Positions 469-36,292 of a DNA stretch of 47,359 nucleotides are shown one piece after another. The DNA is from Candidatus Woesearchaeota archaeon. Its GTDB lineage: Archaea; Nanobdellota; Nanobdellia; SCGC-AAA011-G17; DATDVL01. The translations under genes and the position numbers were made by a program. The notes under the pieces were generated by a model that was not told the origin of the DNA, made no database searches, and saw only the letters and a program-made list of their open reading frames with translations. The stretch's first letter is position 1. The number at the start of each line of letters is the position of its first letter. The stretch covers positions 1 to 47,359 of the forward strand of contig CAYIRJ010000004.1 in assembly GCA_964365915.1 (NCBI GenBank), in the 5' to 3' direction.

Positions 469-565
469 GCCCTAGTCGTCTAGTGGTTAGGATACAGCCC
501 TGTCATGGGCATGCAGATCGGTCCAAAGAAAGGCTGTGGCGCGAGTCCGATTCTCGCCTAGGGCG
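469..565 (+). tRNA. tRNA-Asp(GUC) with a 25-nt canonical 37/38 intron (506-530)
   Basis: Acceptor GCCCTAG (469-475) pairs with CTAGGGC (558-564); discriminator G. D-loop is AGTGGTTA. Anticodon stem CAGCC (495-499) pairs with GGCTG (532-536); loop CT-GTC-A. BHB geometry is present: 3-nt bulges 504-506 and 529-531 flank a 4-bp helix with one G.A mismatch, and the outer helix is GGGC/GTCC. T-loop is TCCGATT (C at position 55, unusual). No encoded CCA. Confidence 0.85.
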
Positions 566-567
566 TT

Positions 568-669
568 GGGCCGGTAGCTCAGCTTGGTAGAGCATTTGCC
601 TTTTATCAAGCAAGCATATCCTGCTTCAAAGCAAGCAAGTGGTCATGGGTTCAAATCCCATCCGGCCCG
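568..669 (+). tRNA. tRNA-Lys(UUU) with a 28-nt canonical 37/38 intron (606-633)
   Basis: Acceptor GGGCCGG (568-574) pairs with CCGGCCC (662-668); discriminator G. D-arm is GCTC-AGCTTGGTA-GAGC. Anticodon stem TTTGC (595-599) pairs with GCAAG (635-639); loop CT-TTT-A. The central BHB helix CTTT/AAAG is perfect. T-arm is ATGGG-TTCAAAT-CCCAT. It lies 2 nt after tRNA-Asp. Confidence 0.9.
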
Positions 670-9652: not shown

Positions 9653-10060
9653 ATGCAGTATGACCTCCAGTTGATTGGCTATCTCAATACTTTTGAATCC
9701 CTAACCCGATCGAAAGTGAAGGATGTGTTCTTTGATGCTACGGAGACCTTGGTGTTTGTGATGCAGCCAGGAGAGATGGGAAAAGCCATTGGCAAGAAAG
9801 GCAGCAATGTGAAACGCTTAGGAAACTTGCTGAAGAAGCGCATTCGCGTTATTGAATTTTCTTCTTCTGCCATTGATTTTGTTAAAAATTGCACGCTGCC
9901 CTTGATTCCGAAAAAGATGGTGCAGGAAGTGGATACTATCACTATCACCATGGAAAATACGCAACAGAAGGCTATGCTGCTGGGAAGGAACAAAAGCAAT
10001 TTCTTGAATATGCAGAAGATAGTGCAGAGATATTATCCGGTGCAGCTGAAAGTGTTATAG
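9653..10060 (+). CDS. nusA: archaeal NusA-like transcription termination/antitermination protein (KH domains)
   Basis: 135 aa. KH signature GKAIGKKGSNVKRL. In the canonical position after rpl30e. Confidence 0.85.
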   Translation: MQYDLQLIGYLNTFESLTRSKVKDVFFDATETLVFVMQPGEMGKAIGKKGSNVKRLGNLLKKRIRVIEFSSSAIDFVKNCTLPLIPKKMVQEVDTITITMENTQQKAMLLGRNKSNFLNMQKIVQRYYPVQLKVL

Positions 10061-11266
10061 AAATATATCATCCTCAGCATCGTAGTCCATTCCTAAGGCC
10101 TTTGTGAATTTTACTTGGTTTTCCTTGATCTGCAGTTTTTGCAGTGCCTTGTTCCTTATTTGTCGAATTCTTTCTCGTGTCACGTTTCCCTCGATTGTAC
10201 CTACTTCTTCCAATGTTCTTTTTTCTCCTGTAAGATACAATAATCTTATTATTCTTTTTTCTCTTTCTTTTAAAGAAGTTTTATCAAGTGCTTGAATAAT
10301 CATTTCTTTATCATAGACTAAAATATTTTCCCTTATCCTTTCTTGGTAATCATGGCAATCTCTTTTTTCCAAATAATCAACTATTTCTTGATCTTGTTGA
10401 TTGTGCTGAATATTTTCTTTTGCTGGAGTTAAGTCCTGCTTAGCTCTGTCATCTAATGTCAACGTTCGATGAAGATTCTGATCTTTGGGTTCTTGGTAAA
10501 GAGTGTTTATTTCTAGATTTACAGGATTCAAAGCCTTGCATATTAATTCAGTTTTTTTATCCGCAATTTCTTCTCCTCTTATTACCTTTTCTGCCCTTAG
10601 GAATAAAAAAGAATCTAGATGCACTGCTGCATAGGAATAGTTATGATAATTTTCACTCATTACACCAAAAAAGGCAGCTCTATACACTGCTGTGTATCCT
10701 GGATGTTTTTCTGCTTTTCTCACGAAATTAATAATAGATATAGAAGCCCGCTGTATGAGATCTTCCAATGGTGGTGATTCTAAATTCCTTGATTTTCTAT
10801 AGCGAATAAATGATTTTCCTGCCTGCGTGGCTGTATGCAGAAAATACGTCTCCATAAATCGTTGCATCTCTTGTTCAGAATATCCTGCTTCTTTCAACGC
10901 TGGAGCAATATGCCCTCGATAATGATGTACAAATGTTGCATGGTATCTTTGATTTACTTCTTCTTGCGTGGCAGATGGGTGCTGCTGTAAAAATTTGAGA
11001 AAGTTCCTTTTTCTTTCATCCCAGACTTTCTCTGACAATTGCCCTTTTCCCCTATTCCAAGCTGATTTTGAAATGCCTACATCTTTTTTTGCATTGTTAA
11101 TTCTCAACCGGTAGAACTTTTTGAGAATGGATTCTAGTCCTGCTTTCCTTACATCCCTTATGCTCGCTCCTTGATGACTTGCTAAATAGTCATAAAATTC
11201 TGTTAATCCTCTTTCCCAATATGCGTAATCCTTCTGTACCTGTTTTTGCTCTGATATAGTAGTCAT
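10055..11266 (-). CDS. sigma-70 family-like protein (region 2-like and region 4 HTH)
   Basis: 403 aa. The C-terminus LKEREKRIIRLLYLTGEKRTLEEVGTIEGNVTRERIRQIRNKALQKLQ is the classic sigma-70 region 4.1/4.2 signature. LEDLIQRASISIINFVRKAEKHPGYTAVYRAAF resembles region 2.1-2.3. The gene is AT-rich (15/60 G+C at 10201-10260). Confidence 0.8.
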   Translation of the reverse strand: MTTISEQKQVQKDYAYWERGLTEFYDYLASHQGASIRDVRKAGLESILKKFYRLRINNAKKDVGISKSAWNRGKGQLSEKVWDERKRNFLKFLQQHPSATQEEVNQRYHATFVHHYRGHIAPALKEAGYSEQEMQRFMETYFLHTATQAGKSFIRYRKSRNLESPPLEDLIQRASISIINFVRKAEKHPGYTAVYRAAFFGVMSENYHNYSYAAVHLDSFLFLRAEKVIRGEEIADKKTELICKALNPVNLEINTLYQEPKDQNLHRTLTLDDRAKQDLTPAKENIQHNQQDQEIVDYLEKRDCHDYQERIRENILVYDKEMIIQALDKTSLKEREKRIIRLLYLTGEKRTLEEVGTIEGNVTRERIRQIRNKALQKLQIKENQVKFTKALGMDYDAEDDIFL

Positions 11267-19123: not shown

Positions 19124-19332
19124 CAGCGGTTCTTTTCTTATTTTAATCTCTTGTTTTTTAATTCTGCTTCTGTTAACATCATGTTAATTTATGAAGACTT
19201 AGTGATTGTAACATAGTTGCCCAGCTTTGCACATAAATCTATTTAAATCAGTTTGTCTAAAGAATATGGAAGGAATATGGATAAAATGCATGATTCATAT
19301 GAACCGCAGGATATTGATATTATATAACCAAA

Positions 19333-19917
19333 ATGGTAAAATTATTTTTAGTGCGCCACGGGGAAGCAATTGAAGCAGAGCCTGAGCCTATGCTTTCGAA
19401 AAAAGGTAAACAACAAGCAAAGGCTGTTGCAAAAAGGCTTGTACAATTTCGAATAACGAAAGTATATACGAGTAGCGCACGGCGAGCTTTGGAAACTTAT
19501 GAGCTATACAAAAAATTGAAACCTGATATTCCGGTTATAGTTTCTGATAAGTTAAAAGAAGTATATCGTACATTAGTTGGTGGTCCTGAACGTGAAGGTA
19601 CATCTCTCGATCGTGCAAAGAAAGATATGCAACGTGCAGATACTATCTTAAAAGAGATCCTTGATGATACTAAAGAAGATGATATTGTTCTTTTGTTTAT
19701 TCATGGAAATTTAATTCGATATATTCTTGCTCACTTTTTACAAATAAGTAAAGTGAACTTATGGGAAGAGTTAGAGATTCATGATGCTTCAATCTCATTA
19801 ATCGAAATTGTTAACAACAAACCACAAATCCGCTTGGTTAATTCCATCGAACATTTAGATAAAAAAGAAGTTGATGAATTCTACAATTGCTATGCAAAAA
19901 CAGAATATCTTTCTTAG
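19333..19917 (+). CDS. histidine phosphatase family protein (phosphoglycerate-mutase-like)
   Basis: 194 aa. N-terminal LFLVRHGEA (RHG catalytic motif) and a later IHGNLIRY block. Confidence 0.75.
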   Translation: MVKLFLVRHGEAIEAEPEPMLSKKGKQQAKAVAKRLVQFRITKVYTSSARRALETYELYKKLKPDIPVIVSDKLKEVYRTLVGGPEREGTSLDRAKKDMQRADTILKEILDDTKEDDIVLLFIHGNLIRYILAHFLQISKVNLWEELEIHDASISLIEIVNNKPQIRLVNSIEHLDKKEVDEFYNCYAKTEYLS

Positions 19918-21086
19918 GAAAGAAGTGTAACTAAAGATTTTGAAGGGCTATCATTAAATTGGTTAATTCCTCGTATTCGTCCTTGCCTTCCCATTGTTGC
20001 TCGTAATTCTGAAAAATTGTATAGTTCAATCGTTTTTGCCTCTAATGCTCCTCTTGATTTTGGATTGATAAGATAACCTGTTGTTCCGTTAACTATTGCT
20101 TCAACAACTCCTCCACTGTTTCCTCCTATAACTGGTATTTGATGCATGCCAGCTTCAAGAAAGACAATTCCAAAACCCTCTACATCATTAGGTGGAATAA
20201 ATTCTGTTGGTAAAACAAAAATATCAGCAGCACCATAGTGCGTTGCTAAACCCACGTTATCAACTTGATCATGAATGTGCACTCTTTCTTCGAGATTATG
20301 AAGATTTATGGTTTCTTGAATATGTGCTTTATTTGGACCATCACCTACGATGGCATAATGGATGTTAGGTATAGCTGTTCGCAGATTAGGAAATATCTCA
20401 ACAAAGCTATACTGACCTTTTCTGTCTATGAGACGCCCTACAGAGAGCACAACAAAATCATCTGGAGTATAACCAAGTGCTATTTTACAATTTGCTTTAT
20501 CTTGTAATGTTGGCGTGCTTAAAGAAGGCGGAAGTAAATGGAATCTTGCATGAATACCTTGATGTACCAATAAATTTTGCGTGAATTTGCTAATACAAAA
20601 AACACGATCTGCATCTTGTAATACAGTTTTGTAAAATAGAGCTTCATCTTGTGTGTATCCTTGATGTGCCCCTGTCGAAGAGCGGTTTTCATTAACAATA
20701 GCATTATCAATGAATACTTCTTTTGCATGGGTAATAATTCCTGTTCGTACAGAAGGTTTATATATTTTATAATCTCGACCAGCTTCTGGATGTGAGCGGA
20801 GATAACCAAAAAGTGCTATATCTGTGTTTGTTTGTCTTAAGATGTCAACAATAGTACGATTCGTTTGTCTTCTGGGAGGAGTTTCATGTTCAAAGGGAAA
20901 AAAATCGGTCCTATACACATCAAATGGTAGACTTTGATAATCTGTAACTTGGCCAATATTATTAGGAACAATAACTTGAAAACGCTCACTTGCAAAATAC
21001 TTTCTATAAATTTGCATTAAGTAAGTTGCTATGCCTCCCTTCATAGGATGGAAATCTTGTGTGATCAGTGTAACACTTTTTACCAT
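19914..21086 (-). CDS. glycosyltransferase family 4 (GT-B, retaining type)
   Basis: 390 aa. EGFGIVFLEAGMHQIPVIGGNSGGVVEAIVNGTTGYLI is the GT4 E-x7-E region. Confidence 0.85.
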   Translation of the reverse strand: MVKSVTLITQDFHPMKGGIATYLMQIYRKYFASERFQVIVPNNIGQVTDYQSLPFDVYRTDFFPFEHETPPRRQTNRTIVDILRQTNTDIALFGYLRSHPEAGRDYKIYKPSVRTGIITHAKEVFIDNAIVNENRSSTGAHQGYTQDEALFYKTVLQDADRVFCISKFTQNLLVHQGIHARFHLLPPSLSTPTLQDKANCKIALGYTPDDFVVLSVGRLIDRKGQYSFVEIFPNLRTAIPNIHYAIVGDGPNKAHIQETINLHNLEERVHIHDQVDNVGLATHYGAADIFVLPTEFIPPNDVEGFGIVFLEAGMHQIPVIGGNSGGVVEAIVNGTTGYLINPKSRGALEAKTIELYNFSELRATMGRQGRIRGINQFNDSPSKSLVTLLS

Positions 21087-21090
21087 AGGA

Positions 21091-21915
21091 TTATTTGAAT
21101 ACCTCTCGGAATTGTCTTAAAGATGTTTTCGCCTCCCTTGGATGTCCCCATCGATGACGATCATATGCCTGAATTAAAAAGAAAATACCTCTGCCGAAGC
21201 GTAATTCTTCTTGACTTAAGTGAGATTTTCCTTGAAAATATTGATCAAGGTAAGTTGCTTGTTCTGTTCCATTACGACAAACTCGAAGAAGAGGTCTTGC
21301 TAAATCGAAGGCGACAGGTCCATCTAATACATGTTCTAAATCAATAGCAACGAGCCTTTGTTTTGTTTTAACAATATTGCTCAGCGAATAGTCTCCATGA
21401 ATCAACCCATAAGTAGAAAATTGAGGTGTAGGCAATTCATTTTTTCTTACTAACTGATGCTGTAAAAGATAGGTGTAAACACGATCAAGTTTTTCAGCCC
21501 AACCATCTAAATTATAATTATCTACCTGGTGGAATGCTGCTTGAAGCTGTGCGACAGCAAAAATATCTAGGGTAGGTAAGGTCTCTAACACCTCTCCATC
21601 GATAAATGTAGTTACAAATCCTCGTTCAAGTATTCCTACAATAGGTGAAGAAATTATTCTTGATCTATTTTTCTCATCGAGTCTTTGTTTATATTGTGTT
21701 ATATTTGACGTTCTATCTGTAGGATGATAAATAAACGTTCCATTTGCTGTTGTAAATAATAATGGGCTTTGTCTTGTTCCTGCTTTCCATCCCGTATTAA
21801 TAACTTGGTGATGAGTGATTTCTCCAAAATTTCTTGATAATGTAGACATTACTTCTCTTACATTATTTATACTCATTTGAATAATCCTCGGTATGTTTGG
21901 AAGATAATATTCCAA
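21091..21915 (-). CDS. aminoglycoside/choline-kinase-like phosphotransferase (APH fold)
   Basis: 274 aa. GLIHGDYSLSNIV (HxDxxxxN) and VAIDLEHV (IDxE) motifs. Confidence 0.7.
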   Translation of the reverse strand: MEYYLPNIPRIIQMSINNVREVMSTLSRNFGEITHHQVINTGWKAGTRQSPLLFTTANGTFIYHPTDRTSNITQYKQRLDEKNRSRIISSPIVGILERGFVTTFIDGEVLETLPTLDIFAVAQLQAAFHQVDNYNLDGWAEKLDRVYTYLLQHQLVRKNELPTPQFSTYGLIHGDYSLSNIVKTKQRLVAIDLEHVLDGPVAFDLARPLLRVCRNGTEQATYLDQYFQGKSHLSQEELRFGRGIFFLIQAYDRHRWGHPREAKTSLRQFREVFK

Positions 21916-23060
21916 TCAAATAATGTTTCTGCTCGTATTCTTCCCTTTACTCCCATAGCACGTCGTGTTGTAGGGTTTTGGATAAGCTCAACAAGCCTAT
22001 TGGCTGCTGTTTCATAATCTCTTTCAGATACTAAGAACCCCGTTTCACCATCTTGCACTATTTCAGGGACGCCTCCTACTCGAGAAGCGATGATGGGTAG
22101 ACCTGAAGCAGACGCTTCACAAAGACATCTTCCCATAGTTTCCGTGTGAACATAAGATGAGCCTCGTTCATGCTTTTCTAAGTGGATAGGCATATGTAAA
22201 AAAATATCTGCTGTCCTGAAATATGCAGGCATATCTTCTATTCTTCGTGCACCAAGTAAATGCACATTATTCAATCCACGATCAACCACTATCTTTTCGA
22301 TAGTTTCTCGTTCTGGACCATCACCTAAAATATGATATTGAAAATGGACATCTTGCCTTGTTGCTTGTTCTATTGCTCGAAGTGAATATTCCCAACCTTT
22401 AAAATCAACAAGTCGTGCAGCAGTTAGTATGTTAACAGTTTCTCTTGAGGATGATGTAGTGGGATAAAAAGTATTACAGTCAACACCACCAGTAACTTTA
22501 ACAAGTTTGTCAGAATTCACGCCGACCGATATTGTTCTATGATAAGAGTATTGACTATTGACTATGAATCTGTCTACGTATTTATTTACTAAGTTTACAA
22601 CTCTTGCTCGTGAAGCCTCTAAGCTTCTTGTAGTGTCTGTTTCATCTCCAATCCATCCAGCCACAATATCATTTCCACCTGATCGAACAATAACTTGTGT
22701 TTGTGGATATGTTTGCTTGATAATTGCAAGCGAAGGTAGCCATGTTGGACTATTTAAGTAGAAAATAGTGTTGTTAGGATCTTGATTTGCAAGGAGTATT
22801 ACTGCATCTTTCTCAAAGTTGCCAGTTAATGATTTGTTTACCAATACTTCTAAATCTTTATTTGCAAGTGCTTGTGCTGGTCCATGTGAACTGTCGCCTG
22901 GAGCTGGAACGCCGTCAGTGACTAAATCTTTAACAAATATCTTACTTATAGGAAATTCTTGATGCCCAGCAAATGCACGAGCGAATTCATACGCATGTGT
23001 TTCCATACCACCGATATGGCTAGAGAATTTTGGTGAGATAAAGCAAATTTGCTTAACCAT
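21873..23060 (-). CDS. glycosyltransferase family 4
   Basis: 395 aa. The N-terminus ICFISPKFSSHIGGMETH and CEASASGLPIIASRVGGVPEIVQDGETGFLV are typical of GT4. Confidence 0.85.
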   Translation of the reverse strand: MVKQICFISPKFSSHIGGMETHAYEFARAFAGHQEFPISKIFVKDLVTDGVPAPGDSSHGPAQALANKDLEVLVNKSLTGNFEKDAVILLANQDPNNTIFYLNSPTWLPSLAIIKQTYPQTQVIVRSGGNDIVAGWIGDETDTTRSLEASRARVVNLVNKYVDRFIVNSQYSYHRTISVGVNSDKLVKVTGGVDCNTFYPTTSSSRETVNILTAARLVDFKGWEYSLRAIEQATRQDVHFQYHILGDGPERETIEKIVVDRGLNNVHLLGARRIEDMPAYFRTADIFLHMPIHLEKHERGSSYVHTETMGRCLCEASASGLPIIASRVGGVPEIVQDGETGFLVSERDYETAANRLVELIQNPTTRRAMGVKGRIRAETLFDWNIIFQTYRGLFK

Positions 23061-23698
23061 TAAAACTCACCTCGTTCACGAAGAATATCGTCAACAGGTA
23101 CGCCCTTTTTAATATCTTCTTTTATCTTTTGTTCTAAATCGGCAACTGCAACACATTGTGTGAGAACTTCACTTTCAATTGTTTGAGGAATAACAGCGAC
23201 CGCATCATAATCACCAAATAATAAATCTCCTGGCTTGATAGTACATTCTCCAATAATGACTGATATATCTAATTTATCAACAATACCTCTCTTTTTAATA
23301 TCTCGAGCATAGTTGGTTCGCGCAAAGACAGGATAACACATATTTATGGTTTCAATAGTATCTCTTGTACAACCATCAATAATTGTTCCATCAACACCCC
23401 GATATTGAGCTAATGTTGCCATGAGTTCCCCAAAAAATGCCATTTCTTTGAAACCATTTCCAACAACAAGAACATCTCCCTTATTTAATTGCTCAAGAAA
23501 ATGGGGTCCTCTATAAACCTCTCGGTGGTCTTCACCATTAGTAATCGGTTTAAGAGACATTGGTCTTGCTCGCCCAAATAAACGTGCTTTAACAAAGTTA
23601 GGTTTAATGTCTGAAGGAAGTAATTGGTGTGTATACCCCATTTCGTCTAAAACATCAGAGATTATTGCTGAAGAGAGACGTGTTTTATAATCAATCAT
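23060..23698 (-). CDS. RraA-like / class II pyruvate-aldolase-like protein
   Basis: 212 aa. SSAIISDVLDEMG, GDVLVV.., FFGELMATLAQYRGVDGTIIDGCTRD and PVFAR follow the RraA/HMG-aldolase family pattern. Confidence 0.75.
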   Translation of the reverse strand: MIDYKTRLSSAIISDVLDEMGYTHQLLPSDIKPNFVKARLFGRARPMSLKPITNGEDHREVYRGPHFLEQLNKGDVLVVGNGFKEMAFFGELMATLAQYRGVDGTIIDGCTRDTIETINMCYPVFARTNYARDIKKRGIVDKLDISVIIGECTIKPGDLLFGDYDAVAVIPQTIESEVLTQCVAVADLEQKIKEDIKKGVPVDDILRERGEF

Positions 23699-25112
23699 GG
23701 TTATTCACCCTTTTAAGCCCACGCATGACTGTTTCTGCAAATGCAAAATCTTCTTCAGTATTGATGTCAATACTTTCTATTAATTGGATTGGAAGAATAT
23801 GCGGGGTTTTTCCAATGCGGGATTTACCACTGAGAAGCGCAGCTCTTCTGATAGCATATAAACTCATAGTTTCAATAATGGTTGCGGGAAGGTCAACACT
23901 GTTAGGAATATGGATTGGATCATAGTTTCTTGGTGTACCATCTGCATTCCAAAGATATATCTTTTCTCTTCGTGCAGCAAAGACACTATCATGTTCTTTT
24001 CTTACTGTCAGACGAAATACTGCTTCATCAATAGTACTTCGTAAGAGAAATGGCGCTGTAGGAAGTACCTGCACATATATATCAGCATCTGGAACTCGTC
24101 CTGCCTCGTACAAAAGCAGTTGATTACCGTCAGTGCTATTAGAGGCAAGGCTCTCTGGTCGACGTAATTCTTTATGTCCTCGTCCACTTGCAATATCAAA
24201 TACGATTTGTGATTCACTATCTAAGTAAACGTCTTGAATAGTGTGGCAAGTGAGTAAGGTATCTAAGACATGAAGGAGTAATGGTTTATCACCGAGCTGT
24301 CTAATATTTTTACTTGTAACTCGAGTGCTTGTTCCTTTTGCAGGCACAAATGCTACAACATGATATTTTTGCGCAATTTTTCCTAATAAATCTTCTTGTA
24401 CAAATACATCTAATGAACTTGTTGCATCGTTGACAATACGTCGTCCTGCTTGTTCAAATTGTCGTTGCGCTTCTTGCATATAACTTATAATGAGTGCACG
24501 ATATTCAGGATGCCCAGGTAAACCTTTTTGGATAATGTGACTTTGTGTTCTTGGAAATATTAAATTTGGGAAGTCAGTATTTCGATGAATTTCATAAGCG
24601 TGACCATCTTTTCCCCAATCGTGGTTTGTGCTCAGATCCATGCCTATAATATTTACTCTATTAAATCCAAGGAAGTATGCAAGTTGTAATGCGTCATAGG
24701 CTACTGTTTTTCCTCGCCAAAACCCCTCTTGTAAAGGATTTTGTGCAAAACGAACAACTCCCTGCGGATGACATTGCGGTACAAAGTAGGTTCGCTCATC
24801 TGCTAATTCTTGAGGAAATGTTTTGCAGGCTCCAGCAGCAATAATCTTTATAGTTGGTGTGCCTCTCAATACTCGTTCATACACATCTCTGAACTGGGGA
24901 ATAACATCTTTGTCAGCAACAATGTTAAATGTAGGAGTTACACCTGATTGCCTTAAGATAAGTGGGCTGAGGTTAAGACCAATGGTTACTTCATTTCTCA
25001 GCGCTGAGAGGTCCCTATAGGCTAAACTTGGGCCCGTTCCTGCAATAAACCCATGCTTTCCTCTGAACTTATTTTCCAAGCTAAGAAGGGCTTCAAGACT
25101 ATTTGTAACCAT
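23691..25112 (-). CDS. fusion protein: N-terminal DUF115/MptE-like (Maf-type) domain plus C-terminal CMP-sugar-acid cytidylyltransferase (NeuA/KdsB-like)
   Basis: 473 aa. The N-terminal half (GFIAGTGPSLAY...NIVADKD) resembles DUF115. The C-terminal half (VAFVPAKGTSTRVTSKNIRQLGDKPLLLHVLDT...VQVLPTAPFL...SIDINTEEDFAFAE) matches the acylneuraminate cytidylyltransferase pattern. Confidence 0.7.
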   Translation of the reverse strand: MVTNSLEALLSLENKFRGKHGFIAGTGPSLAYRDLSALRNEVTIGLNLSPLILRQSGVTPTFNIVADKDVIPQFRDVYERVLRGTPTIKIIAAGACKTFPQELADERTYFVPQCHPQGVVRFAQNPLQEGFWRGKTVAYDALQLAYFLGFNRVNIIGMDLSTNHDWGKDGHAYEIHRNTDFPNLIFPRTQSHIIQKGLPGHPEYRALIISYMQEAQRQFEQAGRRIVNDATSSLDVFVQEDLLGKIAQKYHVVAFVPAKGTSTRVTSKNIRQLGDKPLLLHVLDTLLTCHTIQDVYLDSESQIVFDIASGRGHKELRRPESLASNSTDGNQLLLYEAGRVPDADIYVQVLPTAPFLLRSTIDEAVFRLTVRKEHDSVFAARREKIYLWNADGTPRNYDPIHIPNSVDLPATIIETMSLYAIRRAALLSGKSRIGKTPHILPIQLIESIDINTEEDFAFAETVMRGLKRVNNHD

Positions 25113-25242
25113 TATTGGATAGTGGTTTTAATATTATATAAACCATTTGTTTTTCTAACATTTGTGGTAGGTTTCTTTATCAATCACATGCATTCGACTT
25201 AAGAATCATCACCCGTTATTGCGACAGAGAGGCTCACACAAA

Positions 25243-25254
25243 GTTTTATAAATC
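25243..25254 (+). promoter_or_regulatory. TATA box (GTTTTATAAATC) for rps10
   Basis: Centre lies about 27 nt upstream of ATG 25275; no SD sequence. Confidence 0.45.
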
Positions 25255-25274
25255 ACTTTTTAGAAGATATTCTT

Positions 25275-25687: not shown

Positions 25688-26119
25688 ATGGATGTTCAGC
25701 ATGCGTGCCATTGTTCATATAGGATTCGCTATCACATGGTGTTTGTGCTCAAGTATAGGAAAAATCTCATCAGCGATGAGATATTTGAATTTCTGAAAGA
25801 AATTTGCAAAGGGATTGAACAGCGTTACTTCATCAAGTTCGATGCTCTTGGCAGCGATGGAGATCATCTGCATTTGGTGATTGAAGCTGCTCCTCGCTAT
25901 GCTCCATCAAATGTTATGCAGATCTGCAAGAGCATTCTTGCAAAGCAAGTCTTCAAGCAATTTCCTGAAGTGCGTGAAGAGCTGTGGAATGGAGAGTTCT
26001 GGAGTGATGGAGGACACATTGATACTGTTGGAGATGGCAGAGGACTGGATGCAGTCAGGCAATATGTAGAAAAGCAAGGTAAGAAATCAGATCAGCTCAC
26101 ACTCTACTCGTTCGTCTGA
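25688..26119 (+). CDS. tnpA: IS200/IS605 family transposase TnpA (Y1, HUH)
   Basis: 143 aa. YHMVFVLKYRK, HUH motif GDHLHLVIE, and a C-terminal ..VRQYVEKQ tyrosine helix. Confidence 0.9.
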   Translation: MDVQHACHCSYRIRYHMVFVLKYRKNLISDEIFEFLKEICKGIEQRYFIKFDALGSDGDHLHLVIEAAPRYAPSNVMQICKSILAKQVFKQFPEVREELWNGEFWSDGGHIDTVGDGRGLDAVRQYVEKQGKKSDQLTLYSFV

Positions 26120-28059: not shown

Positions 28060-28974
28060 ATGCAGCGCAAGGTTGCCAAGATTGGGCCAAGCACGTTGAT
28101 GGTCAGCCTGCCCACGCAATGGGTAAAAAAGCACGGCATCAACAAAGGAGATGTGGTGAATGTGCTGGAGGATGGCGATAAATTAACCATCAATCTCGGA
28201 ACGCATACCCCTACAGAAAAGAGCGCAACACTTTCTGTCGAAGGACTTGATGTCATGCTGAGCAGGGCTATTGCTGGATATTATAAAAAAGGCTACTCTG
28301 AAATCAAGATTGTTTGCGATTCCCACAAAAAGCTTGCTGATGTCTATCAAGCATTAAATGTGCACTGGACAGGCATGGAAATTGTGGAACAAGGAGCTTC
28401 TCACATTTTGCTCCGTCAGGTTAGCGAGGTTACTAAGGAAAGTTTTCCTGCCATGCTTAACCGCGCCTTCCTTTTTTTGATTGCGACGAGTGATGCGTCC
28501 TGCCATGCGCTTACGTCTGGGAATAAAGAATCCTTACGGATGGTGGTTGCACGCGATCCTACACAAAATAAGTACTGTGATTTCTGCAGGAGAGTGCTGA
28601 ACAAAGAATCGATCACCGGAGCACCCATGATTTACTACATTGTGGAACAGCTTGAGCGGATGGGGGATTTGTATCGCGATCTTTGCAAGCATTTTCTGGA
28701 ACATCCCGCGAAGCTGAAAAAACATACTGCACTCTTCCAAGAGGCGCATGCATTGCTGCAACAGTTCTATACTCTTTATTACCGGTTTACTCTGGAACGC
28801 TATGAAACTCTGGGAACTTCCTTTAAAACATTGCAGAAGAGGATTGAAGATGCTCTTTCCCCTGCGGATAAACAAGATGTTTTCTTTCTGATGTATCTGC
28901 ACCAGATTGCAGAAGCCATTTTTGATATCAATGGTGCTGCACTGGTTCTTAACCTAGAAACACGGAAGGATTGA
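28060..28974 (+). CDS. AbrB/SpoVT-domain plus PhoU-domain regulator
   Basis: MQRKVAKIGPSTLMVSLPTQWVKKHGINKGDVVNV is an AbrB swapped hairpin. The later IVEQLERMGDLYRDLCKH is PhoU-like. The ORF-track start at 28003 lies upstream of the TATA box. Confidence 0.75.
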   Translation: MQRKVAKIGPSTLMVSLPTQWVKKHGINKGDVVNVLEDGDKLTINLGTHTPTEKSATLSVEGLDVMLSRAIAGYYKKGYSEIKIVCDSHKKLADVYQALNVHWTGMEIVEQGASHILLRQVSEVTKESFPAMLNRAFLFLIATSDASCHALTSGNKESLRMVVARDPTQNKYCDFCRRVLNKESITGAPMIYYIVEQLERMGDLYRDLCKHFLEHPAKLKKHTALFQEAHALLQQFYTLYYRFTLERYETLGTSFKTLQKRIEDALSPADKQDVFFLMYLHQIAEAIFDINGAALVLNLETRKD

Positions 28975-30595
28975 TACTTTCTTCAAATGATTTATTTAAT
29001 TCTGGATATGTTTCAGCAATTGCACGCTTGGTTCCTACATAGATACGCTCTATTCTTTCTTTATCTTCAGGCTTGCGGCGCTCTGACAGTGCAGCAAGCT
29101 GACACAACGAGTTTTGAATGGTAATATTCTTCCACGTATCTATCCAAAGCTGATAATCGCGAGCAGGAAAATATTTTTTCCATTCGTTCCATGCATGCTG
29201 CAAGAGTTCATTACGCTGACCTGGACGGGCAGCCATGAATGCAGCAATGTCGTGCAAAGAATCGGAACGTCCACCGGTCTCCCAGTCAATGACATATCCC
29301 CCTTCCAAAACGTTTGATTCTGCAGCATCACGATGCGCAAGCACTTCAATCCCTAACAGATTACGAAGCTTCGCAAGATTTTCCAATTTTCTTTCGTACT
29401 GGTCCAAAAATTCCTGCTGCCTTGAATGCTGCAACCTTCTCCTGCACCTTCTCTTAAATTCATCTTGATAATCATGCACCGGCTCATCAGGAAAATGCTC
29501 TTGGTACGGGCCTGTTCCTGCTGCCATCAACTTGATGAGATGGGTAATGCCTTGCTTGAAATCATTTAAGTTATTTTCTGCACATTGGTTCAAAGTTTTT
29601 TTGTTTACTCGACGCGTTACAAGAATATACTCCTCCCCATATGGAAAACTGCTCAACGGATCTTCGCATGGCACCTGTTCAATATTCAGTACACCATAGC
29701 GTTGTATATATGCATCTCGCTGCAAACTGGCTATTGCTTCCTCTCGCTTCAATGCTTTTGGATCAATACTACGCTTGAAGAAATAACTATCTTTAGTGAA
29801 AAGATTCTCTTTGCATTCTAACAATACATGTGTCTTGCGGGATTGTGTAACTTTAGCTAATCGTGCAGGATTCTCTAAGATCTTTTCCAATGAAGAACGA
29901 AAATGCTGCTGTGCACGTTTGTATTCTCCCAGAGAACGACAAAAAATTCCTGCCAATAATTCAAGATTTACCGTGTTCTCAGGATATTTCTTAGGAAGCG
30001 ACTCGACTATTCGATGTGCAAGGTAATACCAACCCGATCTTTGATACATATCAAACCGCATAATATCCTTTCTTAATGTCCCACGGAAAGGAAATCCCAA
30101 CCATCCCAACAACGGCAGCATATATTCTGCAAATGTTTTAATATTATCATATTTTTTTTGGTTTTGGATCTTTTGTGCAGTATACAAAAAATATTGATCA
30201 TATCTCTGATTGAGGAACGCTTCCTTTGCACATAGGTCCAAATAAATAGTTGGATTATTTGTTTGTTCTTTTATTGTATCGATTTTTTCAAGGATTTTCT
30301 TTTTTTTCCCAAAAACAGTTTTCGCAAGAGGGAGTATTCCCGTTTTTGGTTCTGCACTTGTTAAGAAGCAAGATGTCATGAACGTCCCACCAAAAAAGCC
30401 CAAAAAAAACAAACGAAGATGATCTTCAATAGGTAGATCTATGTCTGATAACCAATATCGTATTCCTCCATAGATAACTGCGCCCCCTCCTATGGAAAGA
30501 CCATTCATTTCTTTTACCCATTTTTGATGCTTTCGTAATCTCTCCTCAAGCGTTTGTTCCTGATACATCAACTTTTTCTCGTTTTTGAAATTCAA
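28949..30595 (-). CDS. membrane-anchored protein with a C-terminal APH/choline-kinase-like phosphotransferase domain
   Basis: 548 aa. N-terminal hydrophobic helices (GLSIGGGAVIYGGIRYWL, FFLGFFGGTFMTSCFL) and C-terminal LAHRDAAESNVLEGGYVIDWETGG (HxDxxxxN, IDWE). Confidence 0.6.
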   Translation of the reverse strand: MNFKNEKKLMYQEQTLEERLRKHQKWVKEMNGLSIGGGAVIYGGIRYWLSDIDLPIEDHLRLFFLGFFGGTFMTSCFLTSAEPKTGILPLAKTVFGKKKKILEKIDTIKEQTNNPTIYLDLCAKEAFLNQRYDQYFLYTAQKIQNQKKYDNIKTFAEYMLPLLGWLGFPFRGTLRKDIMRFDMYQRSGWYYLAHRIVESLPKKYPENTVNLELLAGIFCRSLGEYKRAQQHFRSSLEKILENPARLAKVTQSRKTHVLLECKENLFTKDSYFFKRSIDPKALKREEAIASLQRDAYIQRYGVLNIEQVPCEDPLSSFPYGEEYILVTRRVNKKTLNQCAENNLNDFKQGITHLIKLMAAGTGPYQEHFPDEPVHDYQDEFKRRCRRRLQHSRQQEFLDQYERKLENLAKLRNLLGIEVLAHRDAAESNVLEGGYVIDWETGGRSDSLHDIAAFMAARPGQRNELLQHAWNEWKKYFPARDYQLWIDTWKNITIQNSLCQLAALSERRKPEDKERIERIYVGTKRAIAETYPELNKSFEESINPSVFLG

Positions 30596-34630: not shown

Positions 34631-36292
34631 ATGCGCGGGGGTATGTTGATTGCCTGGTTGAATGCTGCAACGCCTGAAACCTTTATTGGAGAGAAAGCAA
34701 GAACCCTTGCTGCATTAGCAACTCATGGGATCAATGTGCCGAAAGGATTTGTCATTACCCAAGAGGCATTTACCCACTTTCTTGCGGCAAACCAGATTGA
34801 CTTGCAGTTTCTTGAAAACTTGAACTTGGAGGATCAGGAACAAGTGGCGCATGCGGCAGCAGAACTCCAGCATCTTTTCCAGCAGGCCTATTTTCCAGAA
34901 ACACTACAGCAGGAAATTCTTTCAGCGTATGACCAGATGCTGGTGAGTGCTGAAGTGTATCATCATGTCAGCGCAGAAGCCTTGAACATTCTGAAGACAG
35001 GAAGAGACCTTCCTAAGGTCCTGATTCGGTCCAGCTGGAAGGAAGGAAAAGCGCTTTTTCATATTAAAGGGAAGGAAGCACTGCTGCAAGCCATCAAGGA
35101 AAGTTGGATGCTCCGCTTTCAGCCTGCACTATTGCAGCACCACATGCATGACATGGAAGTTATTGTACAAAAAATGCTTACTGTAGAACGCTCGGGTGTT
35201 GTTGTCCCTGATCAGCAGACTCACATTGAAGTAGTGTTAGGACTCTATGATGCGGTTACTCAGCAGCTTGTTCAGCCTGATGTGTATGCTCTTGATGAGC
35301 AGGGCACGTTTATTACCAAACAAGTGGTGAAGCAGGAATTCCTCTTCGTACGCGATTCCCAGGGAAGCTTGATCAAAAAGCATTTATTCTACCATGGGGA
35401 AAGCCAGAAACTCAGCGATTATGATGCACGCCAAATAGCAAAGCTCTACCAGAAAATTACGAGCATACTTGGATACATGTCTATTCTTGAATTTGCATTT
35501 GATGGTAATCAATTGTATGTACTGCAGGCTACCCAGCAGAAGCAGGAACCTGTCGTGGAACACGTAATGCAGCAAGCACAACCAGATATGCAAGCACAGG
35601 AACCGGAAACGCTTTCTTCAGAAGATCTGCATACTGTGACTGAACTGAAGGTGTTTCTTGAACAGAAGGACAGCTCTATTCCCTGTGATGGAGTGTTTAC
35701 TACTGCCTCTCTCCAAGATCTTCAAGAGATAGCCAAGGAATACCAACAAAATACGGTGTGGTATGCATTGCGCGATGCGCAGGATCTCCTGGACATTGCT
35801 AAGTTCCATGATGCAGGAGCGAACAATGTGGGGATTGCTATTTGTGGACTCACGGAAATTGAGCAGCTGCGGATGGTGAAGAACTCCCTGAAGAAGGCGG
35901 GGCTGGAACCTTTGGAGGAAATTGAAGTAGGATTAGTTATCGATTCCCCTCTTCTCCTCTATTTGCTTGATGACATTGACAGAGAAGGAATTGATTTCTT
36001 AGTAGTGGATTTTGCAACGCTGGCAGAGCGGAGTGCGGGAAAAGTCACGGACGGAAAAAACAAGGGATACTTGAAGTTACTGCATCATTTAGTGAAGGAA
36101 TGCAAATTGAGAAATATTGAAATTGGGGTTGCGGGGACCTTTGATGACGAACTGATTGACTTCTTTGTGAAGGCAGGATTTGACAGCTTGATATTGCCGA
36201 AGGCACAGCTGGAAAATGTGAAGAAAACAGTTGCGCGTGCGGAAAAAAGGCTGTTATTAAACGCTGCACGAAGAGACTTGAAAGAGATATGA
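34631..36292 (+). CDS. PEP synthase/PPDK-like protein without the phosphohistidine swivel domain
   Basis: 553 aa. The N-terminus GEKARTLAALATHGINVPKGFVITQEAF..VQKMLTVERSGVV is a PPDK_N-type ATP-grasp. The C-terminus ..IEVGLVIDSPLLLYLLDDIDREGIDFLVVDFATLAE is PEP-utilizer TIM-barrel-like. No GGxTSHAAI-type motif is present. Confidence 0.6.
   Translation: MRGGMLIAWLNAATPETFIGEKARTLAALATHGINVPKGFVITQEAFTHFLAANQIDLQFLENLNLEDQEQVAHAAAELQHLFQQAYFPETLQQEILSAYDQMLVSAEVYHHVSAEALNILKTGRDLPKVLIRSSWKEGKALFHIKGKEALLQAIKESWMLRFQPALLQHHMHDMEVIVQKMLTVERSGVVVPDQQTHIEVVLGLYDAVTQQLVQPDVYALDEQGTFITKQVVKQEFLFVRDSQGSLIKKHLFYHGESQKLSDYDARQIAKLYQKITSILGYMSILEFAFDGNQLYVLQATQQKQEPVVEHVMQQAQPDMQAQEPETLSSEDLHTVTELKVFLEQKDSSIPCDGVFTTASLQDLQEIAKEYQQNTVWYALRDAQDLLDIAKFHDAGANNVGIAICGLTEIEQLRMVKNSLKKAGLEPLEEIEVGLVIDSPLLLYLLDDIDREGIDFLVVDFATLAERSAGKVTDGKNKGYLKLLHHLVKECKLRNIEIGVAGTFDDELIDFFVKAGFDSLILPKAQLENVKKTVARAEKRLLLNAARRDLKEI

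What the first reader, a model, noticed from the sequence alone, without database searches (positions are those of the whole stretch)
19333..25112. Glycosylation island between EF-1alpha and rps10 has an unusual enzyme set for an activated sugar acid
Five tightly overlapping minus-strand genes sit next to a convergent histidine phosphatase on the + strand. The five are a DUF115-cytidylyltransferase fusion, an RraA-like class II pyruvate-aldolase-like protein, a GT4, an APH-like kinase and a second GT4. No NeuB/KdsA-type synthase is visible. An RraA/HMG-aldolase-like enzyme could condense pyruvate with a sugar aldehyde to make a 2-keto-3-deoxy acid, and the kinase and phosphatase could handle a phospho-intermediate. 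The cytidylyltransferase would activate the product as a CMP-sugar, and the DUF115 and GT4 enzymes would transfer it. That would be a non-canonical route to a Kdo/Kdn/nonulosonate-like surface sugar. This pathway is a hypothesis.
Basis: inference. Interest (0 to 1): 0.6.

Follow-up and report, generated by a model that had tools for sequence, protein, structure and literature searches.

The report
Archaeal sugar-acid glycosylation cassette with RraA
A compact six-gene cassette in a tiny groundwater archaeon most likely makes, activates and attaches a Kdo/Kdn-like acidic sugar, and its odd "RraA-like" enzyme proves to be a constant but unstudied partner of this sugar-activating enzyme in archaea and bacteria.

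Summary
Six genes with the stated domains lie at 19333-25112, between EF-1alpha and rpS10, in a DPANN (Nanoarchaeota) groundwater genome. They form a discrete 5.84-kb cassette. An 85.7%-identical copy sits in a different genomic context in another MAG, and all six genes are under purifying selection (dN/dS 0.13-0.21).

- **New:** the RraA-like protein is tied to this cytidylyltransferase by gene fusion. There are hundreds of bacterial CTP~RraA fusions, archaeal CTP~RraA and DUF115~CTP~RraA fusions, and four-domain epimerase~DAHP-synthase~CTP~RraA proteins. Its catalytic Arg/Asp/Glu are invariant.
- **Against RraA as a general KdsA/NeuB replacement:** bacterial fusions usually sit inside canonical kdsD-kdsA-kdsC operons.
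- **For the archaea specifically:** no PEP-dependent synthase lies within 10 kb of any of 29 archaeal loci. A kinase and a histidine phosphatase are conserved there instead. RraA therefore remains the best candidate sugar-acid synthase in archaea, but this is unproven.

I found no literature on this module.

The parts
19320..25156 (.). Whole cassette (5.84 kb), a discrete unit
   Evidence: blastn shows window 19320-25156 equals L012 8529-2694 at 85.7% identity. The homology stops at both ends and the flanks are unrelated; L012 has no EF-1alpha or rpS10. GC is 0.355-0.39, against 0.41-0.46 in the flanks.
24371..25112 (-). DUF115/MptE-like domain (residues 1-247 of the fusion protein), a predicted Maf/WaaZ-like CMP-ulosonic acid transferase
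23691..24368 (-). CTP_transf_3 domain (residues 249-473), a NeuA-type CMP-ulosonic acid synthetase
   Evidence: PF02348 scores 57.3 bits. A profile against PDB hits PpNeuA 9t4z at 2.4e-27, mouse CMAS at 5e-17, and KdsB only at 4e-5. The top Foldseek hit is the CMP-Kdn synthetase. It is 45% identical to the CTP domain of bacterial CTP~RraA fusions.
23060..23698 (-). RraA-like protein, a predicted Mg2+-dependent 2-oxo-acid (class II pyruvate-aldolase-type) enzyme acting on the ulosonic acid
   Evidence: PF03737 scores 102 bits. PDB hits are 3k4i at 2e-23 and HMG/CHA aldolase 3noj at 1.6e-12, with R112/D113/E189 aligned to Arg-123/Asp-124/Glu-199. These residues are invariant in 19 archaeal orthologues and in 153-154 of 154 fused domains. 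dN/dS is 0.125. It overlaps the fusion gene by 8 nt.
21873..23060 (-). GT4 glycosyltransferase (proximal)
   Evidence: Glycos_transf_1 scores 97.4 bits. It follows RraA directly in the archaeal type-1 loci that reach that far.
21091..21915 (-). APH-fold kinase. The likely start is the ATG at 21876, giving 261 aa.
   Evidence: PF01636 scores 34.8 bits. The HGDxxxxN...D motif is visible in the sequence. It is homologous to the small kinase found in the same slot in 13 other loci (hhalign probability 96.5%; Pfam RIO1/APH weak).
19914..21086 (-). GT4 glycosyltransferase (distal)
   Evidence: Glycos_transf_1 scores 110.8 bits. It is conserved as the last gene of the operon.
19333..19917 (+). Histidine phosphatase (His_Phos_1), convergent; a candidate KdsC-like ulosonate-phosphate phosphatase
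   Evidence: PF00300 scores 91.5 bits, with the RHG motif at residues 8-10. It lies inside the 85.7%-identical cassette. It is adjacent to the cassette in 13 of 14 archaeal loci that reach that far, and it stays next to CTP~RraA in rearranged loci L018 and L036-L039.
25113..25274 (.). Divergent intergenic region between the fusion gene and rpS10, with an AT-rich TATA-like element at 25128-25141
   Evidence: Sequence read. The 14-nt element TT[G/A]ATATTATATAA recurs at 19314-19327. It is probably a promoter element.

Best explanation
**What it is**
The island is a self-contained 5.84-kb cassette conserved in DPANN archaea (Nanoarchaeota, Woese-/Pacearchaeota-type MAGs). It builds a small surface glycoconjugate around a CMP-activated, non-aminated 3-deoxy-2-ulosonic acid of the Kdo/Kdn type.

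**Steps shown by homology, fold and fusion**
- The C-terminal NeuA-like domain of the 473-aa protein converts the free ulosonic acid plus CTP into the CMP-sugar.
- The fused N-terminal Maf/WaaZ-like DUF115 domain transfers it to an acceptor.
- Two GT4 enzymes add further sugars.

**Inferred steps**
- The RraA-like protein is an active Mg2+-dependent 2-oxo-acid enzyme. It works on the C3-C4 region of the ulosonic acid (aldol or retro-aldol chemistry) immediately before the cytidylyltransferase. It is an obligate partner of that enzyme in archaea and bacteria.
- The archaeal cassette encodes no PEP-dependent synthase, isomerase or KdsC. There RraA is the best candidate to form the sugar acid from pyruvate and an aldose (phosphate). 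The conserved histidine phosphatase would play the KdsC role and pull the reversible aldol reaction forward.
- The kinase either supplies the aldose phosphate or, about equally likely, phosphorylates the finished glycan.

**Limit on the claim**
In bacteria the same module coexists with KdsD/KdsA/KdsC. RraA is therefore not a general KdsA replacement. There it may make or interconvert a Kdo epimer or analogue that only this NeuA-like synthetase accepts.
For: **Cassette**
- The cassette is real and conserved, with identical order in window, L012, L014, L023, L025, L026, L029, L032 and L004.
- It has discrete boundaries and a different genomic context in L012.
- dN/dS is 0.125-0.21 for all six genes.

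**Activation and transfer**
- The CTP domain is closest to CMP-Kdn and CMP-Neu5Ac synthetases.
- Maf enzymes transfer CMP-NulO and CMP-Kdo (bioRxiv 10.1101/2020.06.03.131540).

**RraA-CTP coupling**
- After the archaeal orthologues, the next-best hits to the fusion protein are hundreds of 431-438-aa bacterial CTP~RraA fusions.
- A profile of the archaeal RraA finds the RraA domains of such fusions as its closest relatives among 1.84 billion representatives.
- Other architectures occur: the triple fusion DUF115~CTP~RraA, P0029; archaeal loci with CTP~RraA fused and DUF115 separate (L018, L036-39, L052); Ribul_P_3_epim~DAHP_synth_2~CTP~RraA; and KdsC~RraA.

**Catalytic competence of RraA**
- Arg/Asp/Glu are invariant, with their roles described in PMC5065237.
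- An RraA-family enzyme is known to act on a 2-keto-3-deoxy sugar acid (FlDet, PMC8563752).

**Kdo-type chemistry**
- Bacterial neighbours are bona fide KdsA, KpsF/KdsD and KdsC above NCBIfam cut-offs.
- KpsC/S-like and DUF115-like transferases are also adjacent.

**Archaeal copies**
- No NeuB, KdsA, DAHPS, API or KdsC was found in 337.5 kb of 29 archaeal loci.
- The phosphatase and the kinase are conserved.
Against: - **Synthase co-occurrence.** In bacteria the orthologous module co-occurs with a complete PEP-dependent Kdo pathway. KdsA lies within 8 kb in 17 of 57 distinct loci, and in 7 of 15 loci with at least 4 kb on both flanks. The bacterial RraA most similar to the archaeal one (P0161) sits in a kdsD-kdsC-kdsA-CTP~RraA operon. 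A synthase role for RraA is therefore unnecessary there.
- **Loci without RraA.** Archaeal locus L027 keeps the rest of the cassette without RraA. L013 keeps only a 41-aa remnant. The divergent DUF115~CTP homologue P0040 has no RraA nearby.
- **Incomplete genome coverage.** Only +/-10 kb around each archaeal copy could be inspected. A KdsA or NeuB elsewhere in these roughly 0.6-1 Mb genomes is not excluded.
- **Kinase position.** The kinase travels with the GT4 genes. It alternates with methyltransferase or sulfotransferase genes, which suggests glycan tailoring.
- **No direct data.** The sugar's identity, the acceptor and the RraA reaction have no biochemical support. No paper addresses this module.
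Confidence: 0.5

Rival explanations
1. RraA is the sole, PEP-independent synthase (pyruvate plus aldose phosphate gives ulosonate phosphate). The APH kinase makes the aldose phosphate, the histidine phosphatase removes the phosphate, the CTP domain activates the sugar, and DUF115 and the GT4s transfer it. The route would be a full replacement for KdsA/NeuB.
For: - No synthase, isomerase or KdsC is found near any archaeal copy.
- The kinase and the phosphatase are both conserved in the cassette.
- The aldolase catalytic residues are intact.
- A kinase, reversible aldolase and irreversible phosphatase in sequence is chemically coherent (inference).
- A Kdo aldolase activity, EC 4.1.2.23, is known (cited in PMC12199768).
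Against: - The same RraA clade is fused to, or operonic with, true KdsA, KdsC and a DAHP-synthase-like domain in bacteria and in four-domain proteins.
- L027 lacks RraA but keeps the rest of the cassette.
- The kinase segregates with the GT4 block and not with CTP~RraA in rearranged loci.
- Whole genomes were not searched.
Confidence: 0.3
2. RraA is an editing enzyme downstream of a conventional PEP-dependent synthase. It converts Kdo or Kdo8P into a different sugar acid, which only the NeuA-like synthetase accepts. Possible reactions are C4 epimerisation by retro-aldol and aldol, or dehydration as in FlDet. The archaeon would get the Kdo-type precursor from genes elsewhere or from its host.
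For: - Operons with the order kdsA-kdsD-kdsC-CTP~RraA have CTP~RraA as the only cytidylyltransferase.
- Clusters L007 and L068 carry both a true KdsB~KdsC and CTP~RraA, which implies two different CMP-sugars.
- The CTP domain is NeuA-like, not KdsB-like.
- FlDet is a precedent for non-aldolase chemistry on a 3-deoxy-2-ulosonic acid in this fold.
- RraA is dispensable in L027.
Against: - No precursor pathway lies near any archaeal copy.
- DPANN genomes are small (inference from general knowledge).
- The conserved histidine phosphatase in the cassette is unexplained if the precursor arrives already dephosphorylated.
- No natural 4-epi-Kdo-type sugar is known to me.
Confidence: 0.3
3. RraA has no catalytic role. 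It acts as an oligomerisation or regulatory domain for the cytidylyltransferase, in the way E. coli RraA acts as a protein-binding regulator.
For: - E. coli RraA is a non-enzymatic regulator (PMC5065237 introduction).
- NeuA-type enzymes often carry accessory C-terminal domains (own knowledge).
Against: - The catalytic Arg, Asp and Glu are invariant in more than 290 non-identical sequences.
- The NCBIfam RraA equivalog scores 47.6 bits against a cut-off of 136.
- RraA is the most constrained gene in the cassette (dN/dS 0.125).
Confidence: 0.05
4. The cassette is not a ulosonic-acid system. In this reading the DUF115 domain is an MptE-type pyrophosphokinase, the kinase and phosphatase handle a small-molecule cofactor or compatible solute, and the GT4 enzymes make a phosphorylated glycoside that the phosphatase then dephosphorylates.
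For: - GT4 plus histidine phosphatase pairs make compatible solutes in other organisms (own knowledge).
- The GT4 genes have weak similarity to sucrose-phosphate synthase, MshA and BshA.
Against: - The fusion to a NeuA-like cytidylyltransferase, and the recurrent bacterial neighbours (KdsA/D/C, KpsC/S-like, polysialyltransferase-like), point to CMP-sugar transfer.
- Maf is the best structural match and the longest.
Confidence: 0.05

Closest known systems
Canonical CMP-Kdo pathway (KdsD/KpsF, KdsA, KdsC, KdsB/KpsU) of Gram-negative bacteria
   Same: The end product is a CMP-activated 3-deoxy-2-ulosonic acid. Bacterial orthologues of the CTP~RraA module sit in operons with true KdsA, KdsD and KdsC.
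   Different: The archaeal cassette has none of KdsD, KdsA or KdsC. Its cytidylyltransferase is NeuA-like, with KdsB models far below their cut-offs. An RraA-like enzyme is added, and a histidine phosphatase and an APH kinase replace the HAD phosphatase and the SIS isomerase.
Maf flagellin nonulosonic-acid glycosyltransferases and WaaZ (DUF115/PF01973)
   Different: Here the protein is only the roughly 245-aa core domain, without Maf's flanking flagellin-binding domains. It is fused to the CMP-sugar synthetase. The host is an archaeon with no flagellin, and the acceptor is unknown.
HMG/CHA aldolase (LigK/ProA, PDB 3NOJ), class II pyruvate aldolase with the RraA fold
   Same: They share the fold, and the essential Arg-123 and the metal ligands Asp-124 and Glu-199 are conserved (PMC5065237).
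   Different: It is not an orthologue: the LigK equivalogs score 86-89 bits against cut-offs of 304.5 (TIGR02798) and 179 (NF006731). The genomic context is glycan synthesis, not aromatic catabolism, and the substrate is unknown.
FlDet, an RraA-family 2-keto-3-deoxy-glucarate dehydratase/decarboxylase (Flavobacterium sp. UMI-01)
   Same: It is an RraA-fold enzyme acting on a 2-keto-3-deoxy sugar acid (PMC8563752).
   Different: FlDet is catabolic and is not linked to nucleotide activation. Its sequence relationship to this clade was not tested.
CMP-Kdn / CMP-Neu5Ac synthetases (PpNeuA 9t4z, mouse CMAS, N. meningitidis NeuA)
   Same: These are the best sequence and fold matches of the C-terminal domain. 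As with Kdn, no amination or acetylation genes lie in the cassette.
   Different: Those pathways use a NeuB-type PEP-dependent synthase. None is present here.
Kdo aldolase activity (EC 4.1.2.23) and chemoenzymatic one-pot systems of aldolase, CMP-sugar synthetase and transferase
   Same: The logic proposed for RraA, CTP and DUF115 is the same: reversible pyruvate addition to an aldose is pulled forward by CTP activation and transfer. The triple fusion P0029 has all three in one chain.
   Different: This is an analogy only. I know of no assigned gene family for EC 4.1.2.23, and no activity was tested here.

Membership tests
CTP_transf_3 CMP-ulosonic acid synthetases (NeuA/KdsB/PseF) | Pfam PF02348 above the gathering score | tested here: met
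   57.3 bits against a cut-off of 22.6.
CTP_transf_3 CMP-ulosonic acid synthetases (NeuA/KdsB/PseF) | Fold and sequence similarity to solved CMP-NulO synthetases over the whole domain, including the N-terminal nucleotide-binding loop | tested here: met
   Profile against PDB: 9t4z at 2.4e-27 and 1qwj at 5e-17, aligned over residues 232-460; the motif VAFVPAKGTSxRVxxKN aligns with the NeuA loop. Foldseek TM(target) is 0.73-0.78.
CTP_transf_3 CMP-ulosonic acid synthetases (NeuA/KdsB/PseF) | Equivalog-level assignment to one substrate (PseF, KdsB) | tested here: not met
   PseF scores 59 bits against 205.7. KdsB models score 30 bits or less against 193-281.
CTP_transf_3 CMP-ulosonic acid synthetases (NeuA/KdsB/PseF) | Formation of a CMP-sugar from CTP and a free ulosonic acid | not testable with these tools
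   Needs an enzyme assay.
Maf/WaaZ-type DUF115 glycosyltransferases | Pfam PF01973 above the gathering score | tested here: met
   43.5 bits against 34.6.
Maf/WaaZ-type DUF115 glycosyltransferases | A sialyltransferase-like (GT42-like) fold that is closer to Maf than to the MptE pyrophosphokinase | tested here: inconclusive
Maf/WaaZ-type DUF115 glycosyltransferases | Maf's flanking flagellin-binding domains and a flagellin acceptor | tested here: not met
   The domain is only about 245 aa and is followed directly by the CTP domain. The host is archaeal.
HMG/CHA-type class II pyruvate aldolases (RraA-like fold) | Pfam PF03737 above the gathering score | tested here: met
   102.2 bits against 24.5.
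HMG/CHA-type class II pyruvate aldolases (RraA-like fold) | Essential Arg-123 and metal ligands Asp-124 and Glu-199 (Asp-102 water-mediated) | tested here: met
   R112, D113 and E189 are present, with E91 at the Asp-102 position. They are invariant in 19 archaeal orthologues and in 153-154 of 154 fused domains. Residue roles are from PMC5065237; the water-mediated role of Asp-102 is from my own knowledge, as one search found no mention of it in that paper.
HMG/CHA-type class II pyruvate aldolases (RraA-like fold) | Orthology to LigK/PcmE (equivalog cut-off) | tested here: not met
   TIGR02798 scores 86.1 bits against 304.5. NF006731 scores 88.9 against 179.
RraA, regulator of RNase E | Equivalog score | tested here: not met
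   NF006875 scores 47.6 bits against 136.
Canonical Kdo or NulO biosynthesis locus | A PEP-dependent synthase (KdsA/DAHP_synth_1, NeuB, or DAHP_synth_2) in the locus | tested here: not met
   tblastn with KdsA (two sequences), NeuB and RPE-DAHPS2 found no hit at E<0.3 in the window or in 28 other archaeal loci, 337.5 kb in all. Pfam scans of the window ORFs found none. As a positive control, KdsA was found in 19 bacterial loci.
Canonical Kdo or NulO biosynthesis locus | Arabinose-5-P isomerase (SIS+CBS) and a KdsC-type HAD phosphatase | tested here: not met
   No archaeal hits. They were found in 22 and 12 bacterial loci respectively.
GT4 glycosyltransferases | Glycos_transf_1 above the cut-off | tested here: met
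   110.8 and 97.4 bits against 26.4. No equivalog-level match.
APH-fold small-molecule kinases | PF01636 above the cut-off, plus the HGDxxxxN and downstream Asp catalytic motifs | tested here: met
   34.8 bits against 23.2. The sequence reads 'LIHGDYSLSN...IDLEH'. No PDB relative at E<=1. No specific subfamily assignment.
Histidine phosphatase superfamily, branch 1 | PF00300 above the cut-off, plus the RHG catalytic motif | tested here: met
   91.5 bits against 21.7. The sequence reads 'LVRHGEA' at residues 6-12. The nearest PDB entry is the PhoE phosphatase 1h2e at 1e-11. No equivalog match.
Anti-phage defence systems (PADLOC) | Any PADLOC model hit | tested here: not met
   None of the six proteins gave a hit at E<=0.001.

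The most novel reading that the evidence does not exclude
RraA-like enzymes of this clade would be a previously unrecognised enzyme of ulosonic-acid biosynthesis, found in bacteria and DPANN archaea and, as part of four-domain proteins, in one further lineage of unknown taxonomy. They would be class II, pyruvate-dependent Kdo-type aldolases that feed a dedicated NeuA-like CMP-synthetase. In DPANN archaea this would give a PEP-independent route of kinase, aldolase, phosphatase, cytidylyltransferase and transferase. It would also be the first Kdo/Kdn-type glycoconjugate in that superphylum. In bacteria the module would yield a Kdo epimer or analogue distinct from LPS Kdo.
Probability: 0.3. Interest if true: 0.8.

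Novelty: new variant of a known kind. Interest (0 to 1): 0.62.

Why it matters
- **An unstudied pathway component.** CMP-activated keto-deoxy sugar acids (Kdo, Kdn, sialic, pseudaminic and legionaminic acids) are central to microbial surfaces. Their pathways are considered well mapped, always starting from a PEP-dependent synthase. Here a fifth, unstudied enzyme is fused or adjacent to a distinct NeuA-like synthetase in hundreds of bacterial proteins, in DPANN archaea and in four-domain proteins.
- **Consequences if RraA is an aldolase or epimeriser.** If RraA forms or epimerises the sugar acid, this is a new biosynthetic route and probably a new sugar.
- **Surface chemistry of unculturable archaea.** For DPANN archaea, which live attached to hosts and cannot be cultured, it gives a concrete and testable handle on surface glycan chemistry.
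- **Practical uses.** It offers a natural template of aldolase, synthetase and transferase for glyco-engineering.
- **Annotation.** Current labels for these proteins ("regulator of RNase E activity", "MptE-like pyrophosphokinase") are almost certainly wrong.

Tried and rejected
- **Genome-contig scan.** The scan with the full-length fusion alignment returned only 7 loci, because the chosen peptide patterns were specific to the DUF115 domain. The metagenome scan with a CTP-domain alignment supplied most of the comparative data.
- **Homologue search with RraA.** The word-index search found only archaeal orthologues. The exhaustive representative search was needed to see the fused relatives.
- **Literature.** No paper combines RraA with cytidylyltransferase, DUF115 with cytidylyltransferase and archaea, or DPANN with octulosonate. 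The RraA+Kdo hits were irrelevant.
- **Kinase structure.** The kinase has no PDB sequence relative at E<=1, so its substrate class could not be narrowed.
- **Defence system.** I considered this because of a weak GT4-conflict Pfam hit. PADLOC gave nothing.
- **Flanking 14-nt direct repeat.** I considered whether the repeat at 19314 and 25128 is an attachment site or target duplication. The corresponding L012 ends carry only loosely similar TATA-like sequences. I read them as promoter elements and a probable chance match.
- **RraA as a stand-in for another Kdo enzyme.** I considered RraA as the missing phosphatase or isomerase of the Kdo pathway. I rejected this because KdsC and KdsD co-occur with it and KdsC~RraA fusions exist.
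- **Whole-genome absence of kdsA/neuB.** This could not be tested for the archaea.

Full report
**1. Observation**

Their Pfam assignments all exceed the gathering scores.
- 19333-19917(+): His_Phos_1.
- 19914-21086(-): GT4.
- 21091-21915(-): APH-fold kinase.
- 21873-23060(-): GT4.
- 23060-23698(-): RraA-like.
- 23691-25112(-): a 473-aa fusion of MptE-like/DUF115 (N-terminal) and CTP_transf_3 (C-terminal).

NCBIfam gives no equivalog-level name to any of them.

The window is archaeal. Rfam finds two tRNA-model matches of 97 and 102 nt, longer than the 71-position model (consistent with introns, not checked), that ARAGORN does not call. The gene order is rpoB''/B'/A'/A''-nusA-S12-S7-EF2...EF1a-[island]-S10. 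Identical short contigs come from Hainich groundwater 0.1-um filtrates. The closest named relatives are Candidatus Nanoarchaeia, Woesearchaeota and Pacearchaeota MAGs.

No NeuB, KdsA or DAHP-synthase homologue exists anywhere in the 47 kb. This rests on Pfam scans of the long ORFs and on tblastn.

**2. The island is a discrete, conserved cassette**

blastn aligns window 19320-25156 to L012 8529-2694 at 85.7% identity. The homology ends at both borders, and L012 has unrelated flanks with no EF-1alpha or rpS10. The island GC is 0.355-0.39 against 0.41-0.46 around it. Between the two copies every gene has dN/dS of 0.125-0.21, with RraA the lowest.

I mapped 98 fetched loci with phmmer. There are two archaeal layouts.
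- **Type 1:** [DUF115~CTP][RraA][GT4][kinase, or methyltransferase+small kinase][GT4], then a convergent histidine phosphatase. Loci: window, L004, L012, L014, L023, L025, L026, L029, L032.
- **Type 2:** [CTP~RraA] is fused, DUF115 is separate, and the same GT4-MT-kinase-GT4 block and phosphatase are present. Loci: L018, L036-L039, L052.

The small protein in the kinase slot is homologous to the window's APH kinase (hhalign probability 96.5%; weak RIO1/APH Pfam hits). The phosphatase is adjacent in 13 of 14 archaeal loci that extend far enough. In rearranged loci it stays beside CTP~RraA, while the kinase stays with the GT4 genes.

Optional neighbours are tailoring or glycosyl-transfer genes: sulfotransferases, methyltransferases, GT9, GT10-like, Nucleotid_trans and UDP-sugar dehydrogenase. 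Exceptions exist. L003 lacks the kinase and the phosphatase. L027 lacks RraA. L013 has only a 41-aa RraA remnant.

**3. Activation and transfer of a CMP-ulosonic acid**

A profile of 13 archaeal fusion proteins hits PDB NeuA-type enzymes best: PpNeuA 9t4z at 2.4e-27, mouse CMAS at 5e-17 and N. meningitidis NeuA at 3e-11. KdsB scores only 4e-5. The AF2 model (pLDDT 83) gives the same order by Foldseek, with the CMP-Kdn synthetase on top.

Maf enzymes are CMP-nonulosonate transferases. Their DUF115 core resembles GT42 sialyltransferases, and they can also transfer Kdo (bioRxiv 10.1101/2020.06.03.131540).

The fusion of this domain to a CMP-sugar synthetase, and the lack of any amination or acetylation genes, point to a non-aminated Kdo/Kdn-type sugar. 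The two GT4 enzymes are generic retaining glycosyltransferases.

**4. The RraA-like protein is the real novelty**

It keeps the residues that define catalysis in HMG/CHA aldolase. R112, D113 and E189 align with Arg-123 (enolate stabilisation), Asp-124 and Glu-199 (Mg2+ ligands), and E91 aligns with Asp-102 (roles of Arg-123, Asp-124 and Glu-199 from PMC5065237; Asp-102 from my own knowledge). These residues are invariant in 19 archaeal orthologues. They are also invariant in 153-154 of 154 non-identical fused domains and in 137-138 of 138 stand-alone relatives. It is neither a LigK orthologue nor an RNase E regulator by curated cut-offs.

Its link to the cytidylyltransferase is exceptionally strong.
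- After about 45 archaeal orthologues, the next-best matches to the window fusion protein are hundreds of bacterial 431-438-aa CTP_transf_3~RraA fusions. Their CTP domain is 45-50% identical to the window's and their RraA domain is 31% identical.
- A profile of the archaeal RraA searched against 1.84 billion representatives finds the RraA domains of such fusions as its nearest non-archaeal relatives.
- P0029 is a single DUF115~CTP~RraA chain.
- Other architectures in this clade are KdsC~RraA and four-domain Ribul_P_3_epim~DAHP_synth_2~CTP_transf_3~RraA proteins. One of the latter lies next to a nucleotide-sugar transporter gene.

I found no paper on any of this.

**5. What the bacterial contexts say**

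Among 57 distinct bacterial CTP~RraA loci, the following lie within 8 kb: an arabinose-5-P isomerase in 19, KdsA in 17, a TylF-like O-methyltransferase in 15 and KdsC in 9. Among the 15 loci with at least 4 kb on both sides, 8 have the isomerase and 7 have KdsA.

The KdsA, KpsF/KdsD and KdsC neighbours pass NCBIfam equivalog or subfamily cut-offs. Typical operons read kdsA-kdsD-kdsC-CTP~RraA, with CTP~RraA as the only cytidylyltransferase. The bacterial RraA most similar to the archaeal one sits in such an operon (P0161).

Two clusters (L007, L068) carry both a genuine KdsB~KdsC and CTP~RraA. This suggests two different CMP-sugars. Other neighbours are KpsC/S-like and DUF115-like transferases, a polysialyltransferase-like protein and Wzt-like ABC ATPases.

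The module therefore belongs to Kdo-type chemistry, but RraA is an extra component and not a generic KdsA replacement.

**6. What the archaeal contexts say**

In 337.5 kb from 29 archaeal loci there is no homologue of KdsA, NeuB, class II DAHP synthase, arabinose-5-P isomerase or KdsC at E<0.3. The same queries find them readily in the bacterial loci.

The cassette instead conserves a kinase and a histidine phosphatase. A scheme of kinase, then reversible pyruvate aldolase, then irreversible phosphatase, then CTP activation, then transfer is chemically coherent. It parallels KdsD/KdsA/KdsC/KdsB. A reversible Kdo aldolase activity (EC 4.1.2.23) has long been known (cited in PMC12199768). An RraA-family enzyme acting on a 2-keto-3-deoxy sugar acid has been characterised (FlDet, PMC8563752).

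Several points weigh against taking this literally:
- RraA coexists with KdsA in bacteria.
- One otherwise intact archaeal cassette has lost RraA (L027).
- The kinase associates with the GT4 block.
- I could not search whole DPANN genomes.

**7. Verdict**

*Shown:*
- a conserved, mobile six-gene DPANN cassette;
- a Maf-like transferase fused to a NeuA-like CMP-ulosonate synthetase;
- a catalytically intact RraA-like enzyme coupled to that synthetase by recurrent gene fusion in archaea and bacteria;
- absence of a PEP-dependent synthase nearby in archaea and its frequent presence in bacteria.

*Inferred:*
- the sugar is Kdo/Kdn-like;
- RraA performs aldol-type chemistry on it, as a synthase in archaea and possibly as an epimeriser or alternative synthase in bacteria;
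- the histidine phosphatase is the KdsC analogue;
- the kinase primes the aldose or decorates the glycan.

I rate this a new variant of a known kind of system, with moderately high interest. The RraA-cytidylyltransferase module is widespread, uncharacterised and directly testable.

Noticed in passing
window 6792-9398 (+): The RNA polymerase A'' (Rpb1 domain 5) gene carries an intein with a LAGLIDADG homing-endonuclease domain (Intein_splicing 1.3e-18, LAGLIDADG_3 3.5e-11).
   Followed up: no
window 469-565 and 568-669 (+): Rfam finds two adjacent tRNA genes of 97 and 102 nt (49 and 60.7 bits) that ARAGORN does not call. They are probably intron-containing archaeal tRNAs.
   Followed up: no
window 25688-26119 (+): An IS200-like Y1 transposase lies immediately downstream of rpS10, next to the inserted cassette.
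   Followed up: no
window 19314-19327 and 25128-25141: A 14-nt direct repeat TT[G/A]ATATTATATAA sits at both borders of the cassette, 5814 nt apart. The L012 copy has only loosely similar TATA-like sequences at its ends. These are probably promoter elements or chance, not proven attachment sites.
   Followed up: partly
window 28949-30595 (-): A second, much larger (548 aa) protein has an APH-like kinase domain at its C-terminus, 4 kb from the cassette. Its function is unknown.
   Followed up: no
window 34631-36292 (+): A 553-aa protein has PPDK_N (ATP-grasp) and a weak PEP-utilizers_C domain. This is shorter than a normal PEP synthase or PPDK. It could bear on PEP/pyruvate supply but was not examined.
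   Followed up: no
window 10055-11266 (-): A 403-aa protein in an archaeal genome has a Sigma70_r4-type helix-turn-helix at its C-terminus.
   Followed up: no
L099 10001-13450 (P0203); also P0191, P0195, P0293: Four-domain proteins of 985-1149 aa have the architecture Ribul_P_3_epim~DAHP_synth_2~CTP_transf_3~RraA. One is flanked by a nucleotide-sugar transporter (PF04142) gene and many ORFans. The source may be a protist or a giant virus, but taxonomy is unknown.
   Followed up: partly
bacterial loci L033, L041-L043, L062, L078, L084 and others: A recurrent bacterial arrangement reads Wzt-like ABC ATPase, TylF-like O-methyltransferase, CTP~RraA, then a KpsC/S-like (Capsule_synth) protein. It suggests a methylated Kdo-type residue in ABC-transporter-dependent polysaccharides.
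   Followed up: partly
L027 614-3265; L013 11415-11537; L100: Some relatives lack RraA. L027 goes directly from DUF115~CTP to GT4. L013 keeps a 41-aa RraA remnant followed by a glutamine amidotransferase gene. The divergent P0040 locus has an FMN-dependent dehydrogenase and TylF nearby instead.
   Followed up: partly
L014 3013-4005 and L025 8220-9212: A GT9 (heptosyltransferase-family) gene lies divergently upstream of the cassette in two DPANN loci. Together with the Kdo-type transferase, GT4 and kinase, this resembles an LPS inner-core enzyme set.
   Followed up: no
PDB 5ir2 / bioRxiv 10.1101/516542: The second-best PDB sequence match of the RraA-like protein (8.4e-16) is deposited as a 'cellulase' (HLB5 from Parabacteroides johnsonii) although it has the RraA/aldolase fold. 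That annotation looks doubtful.
   Followed up: no
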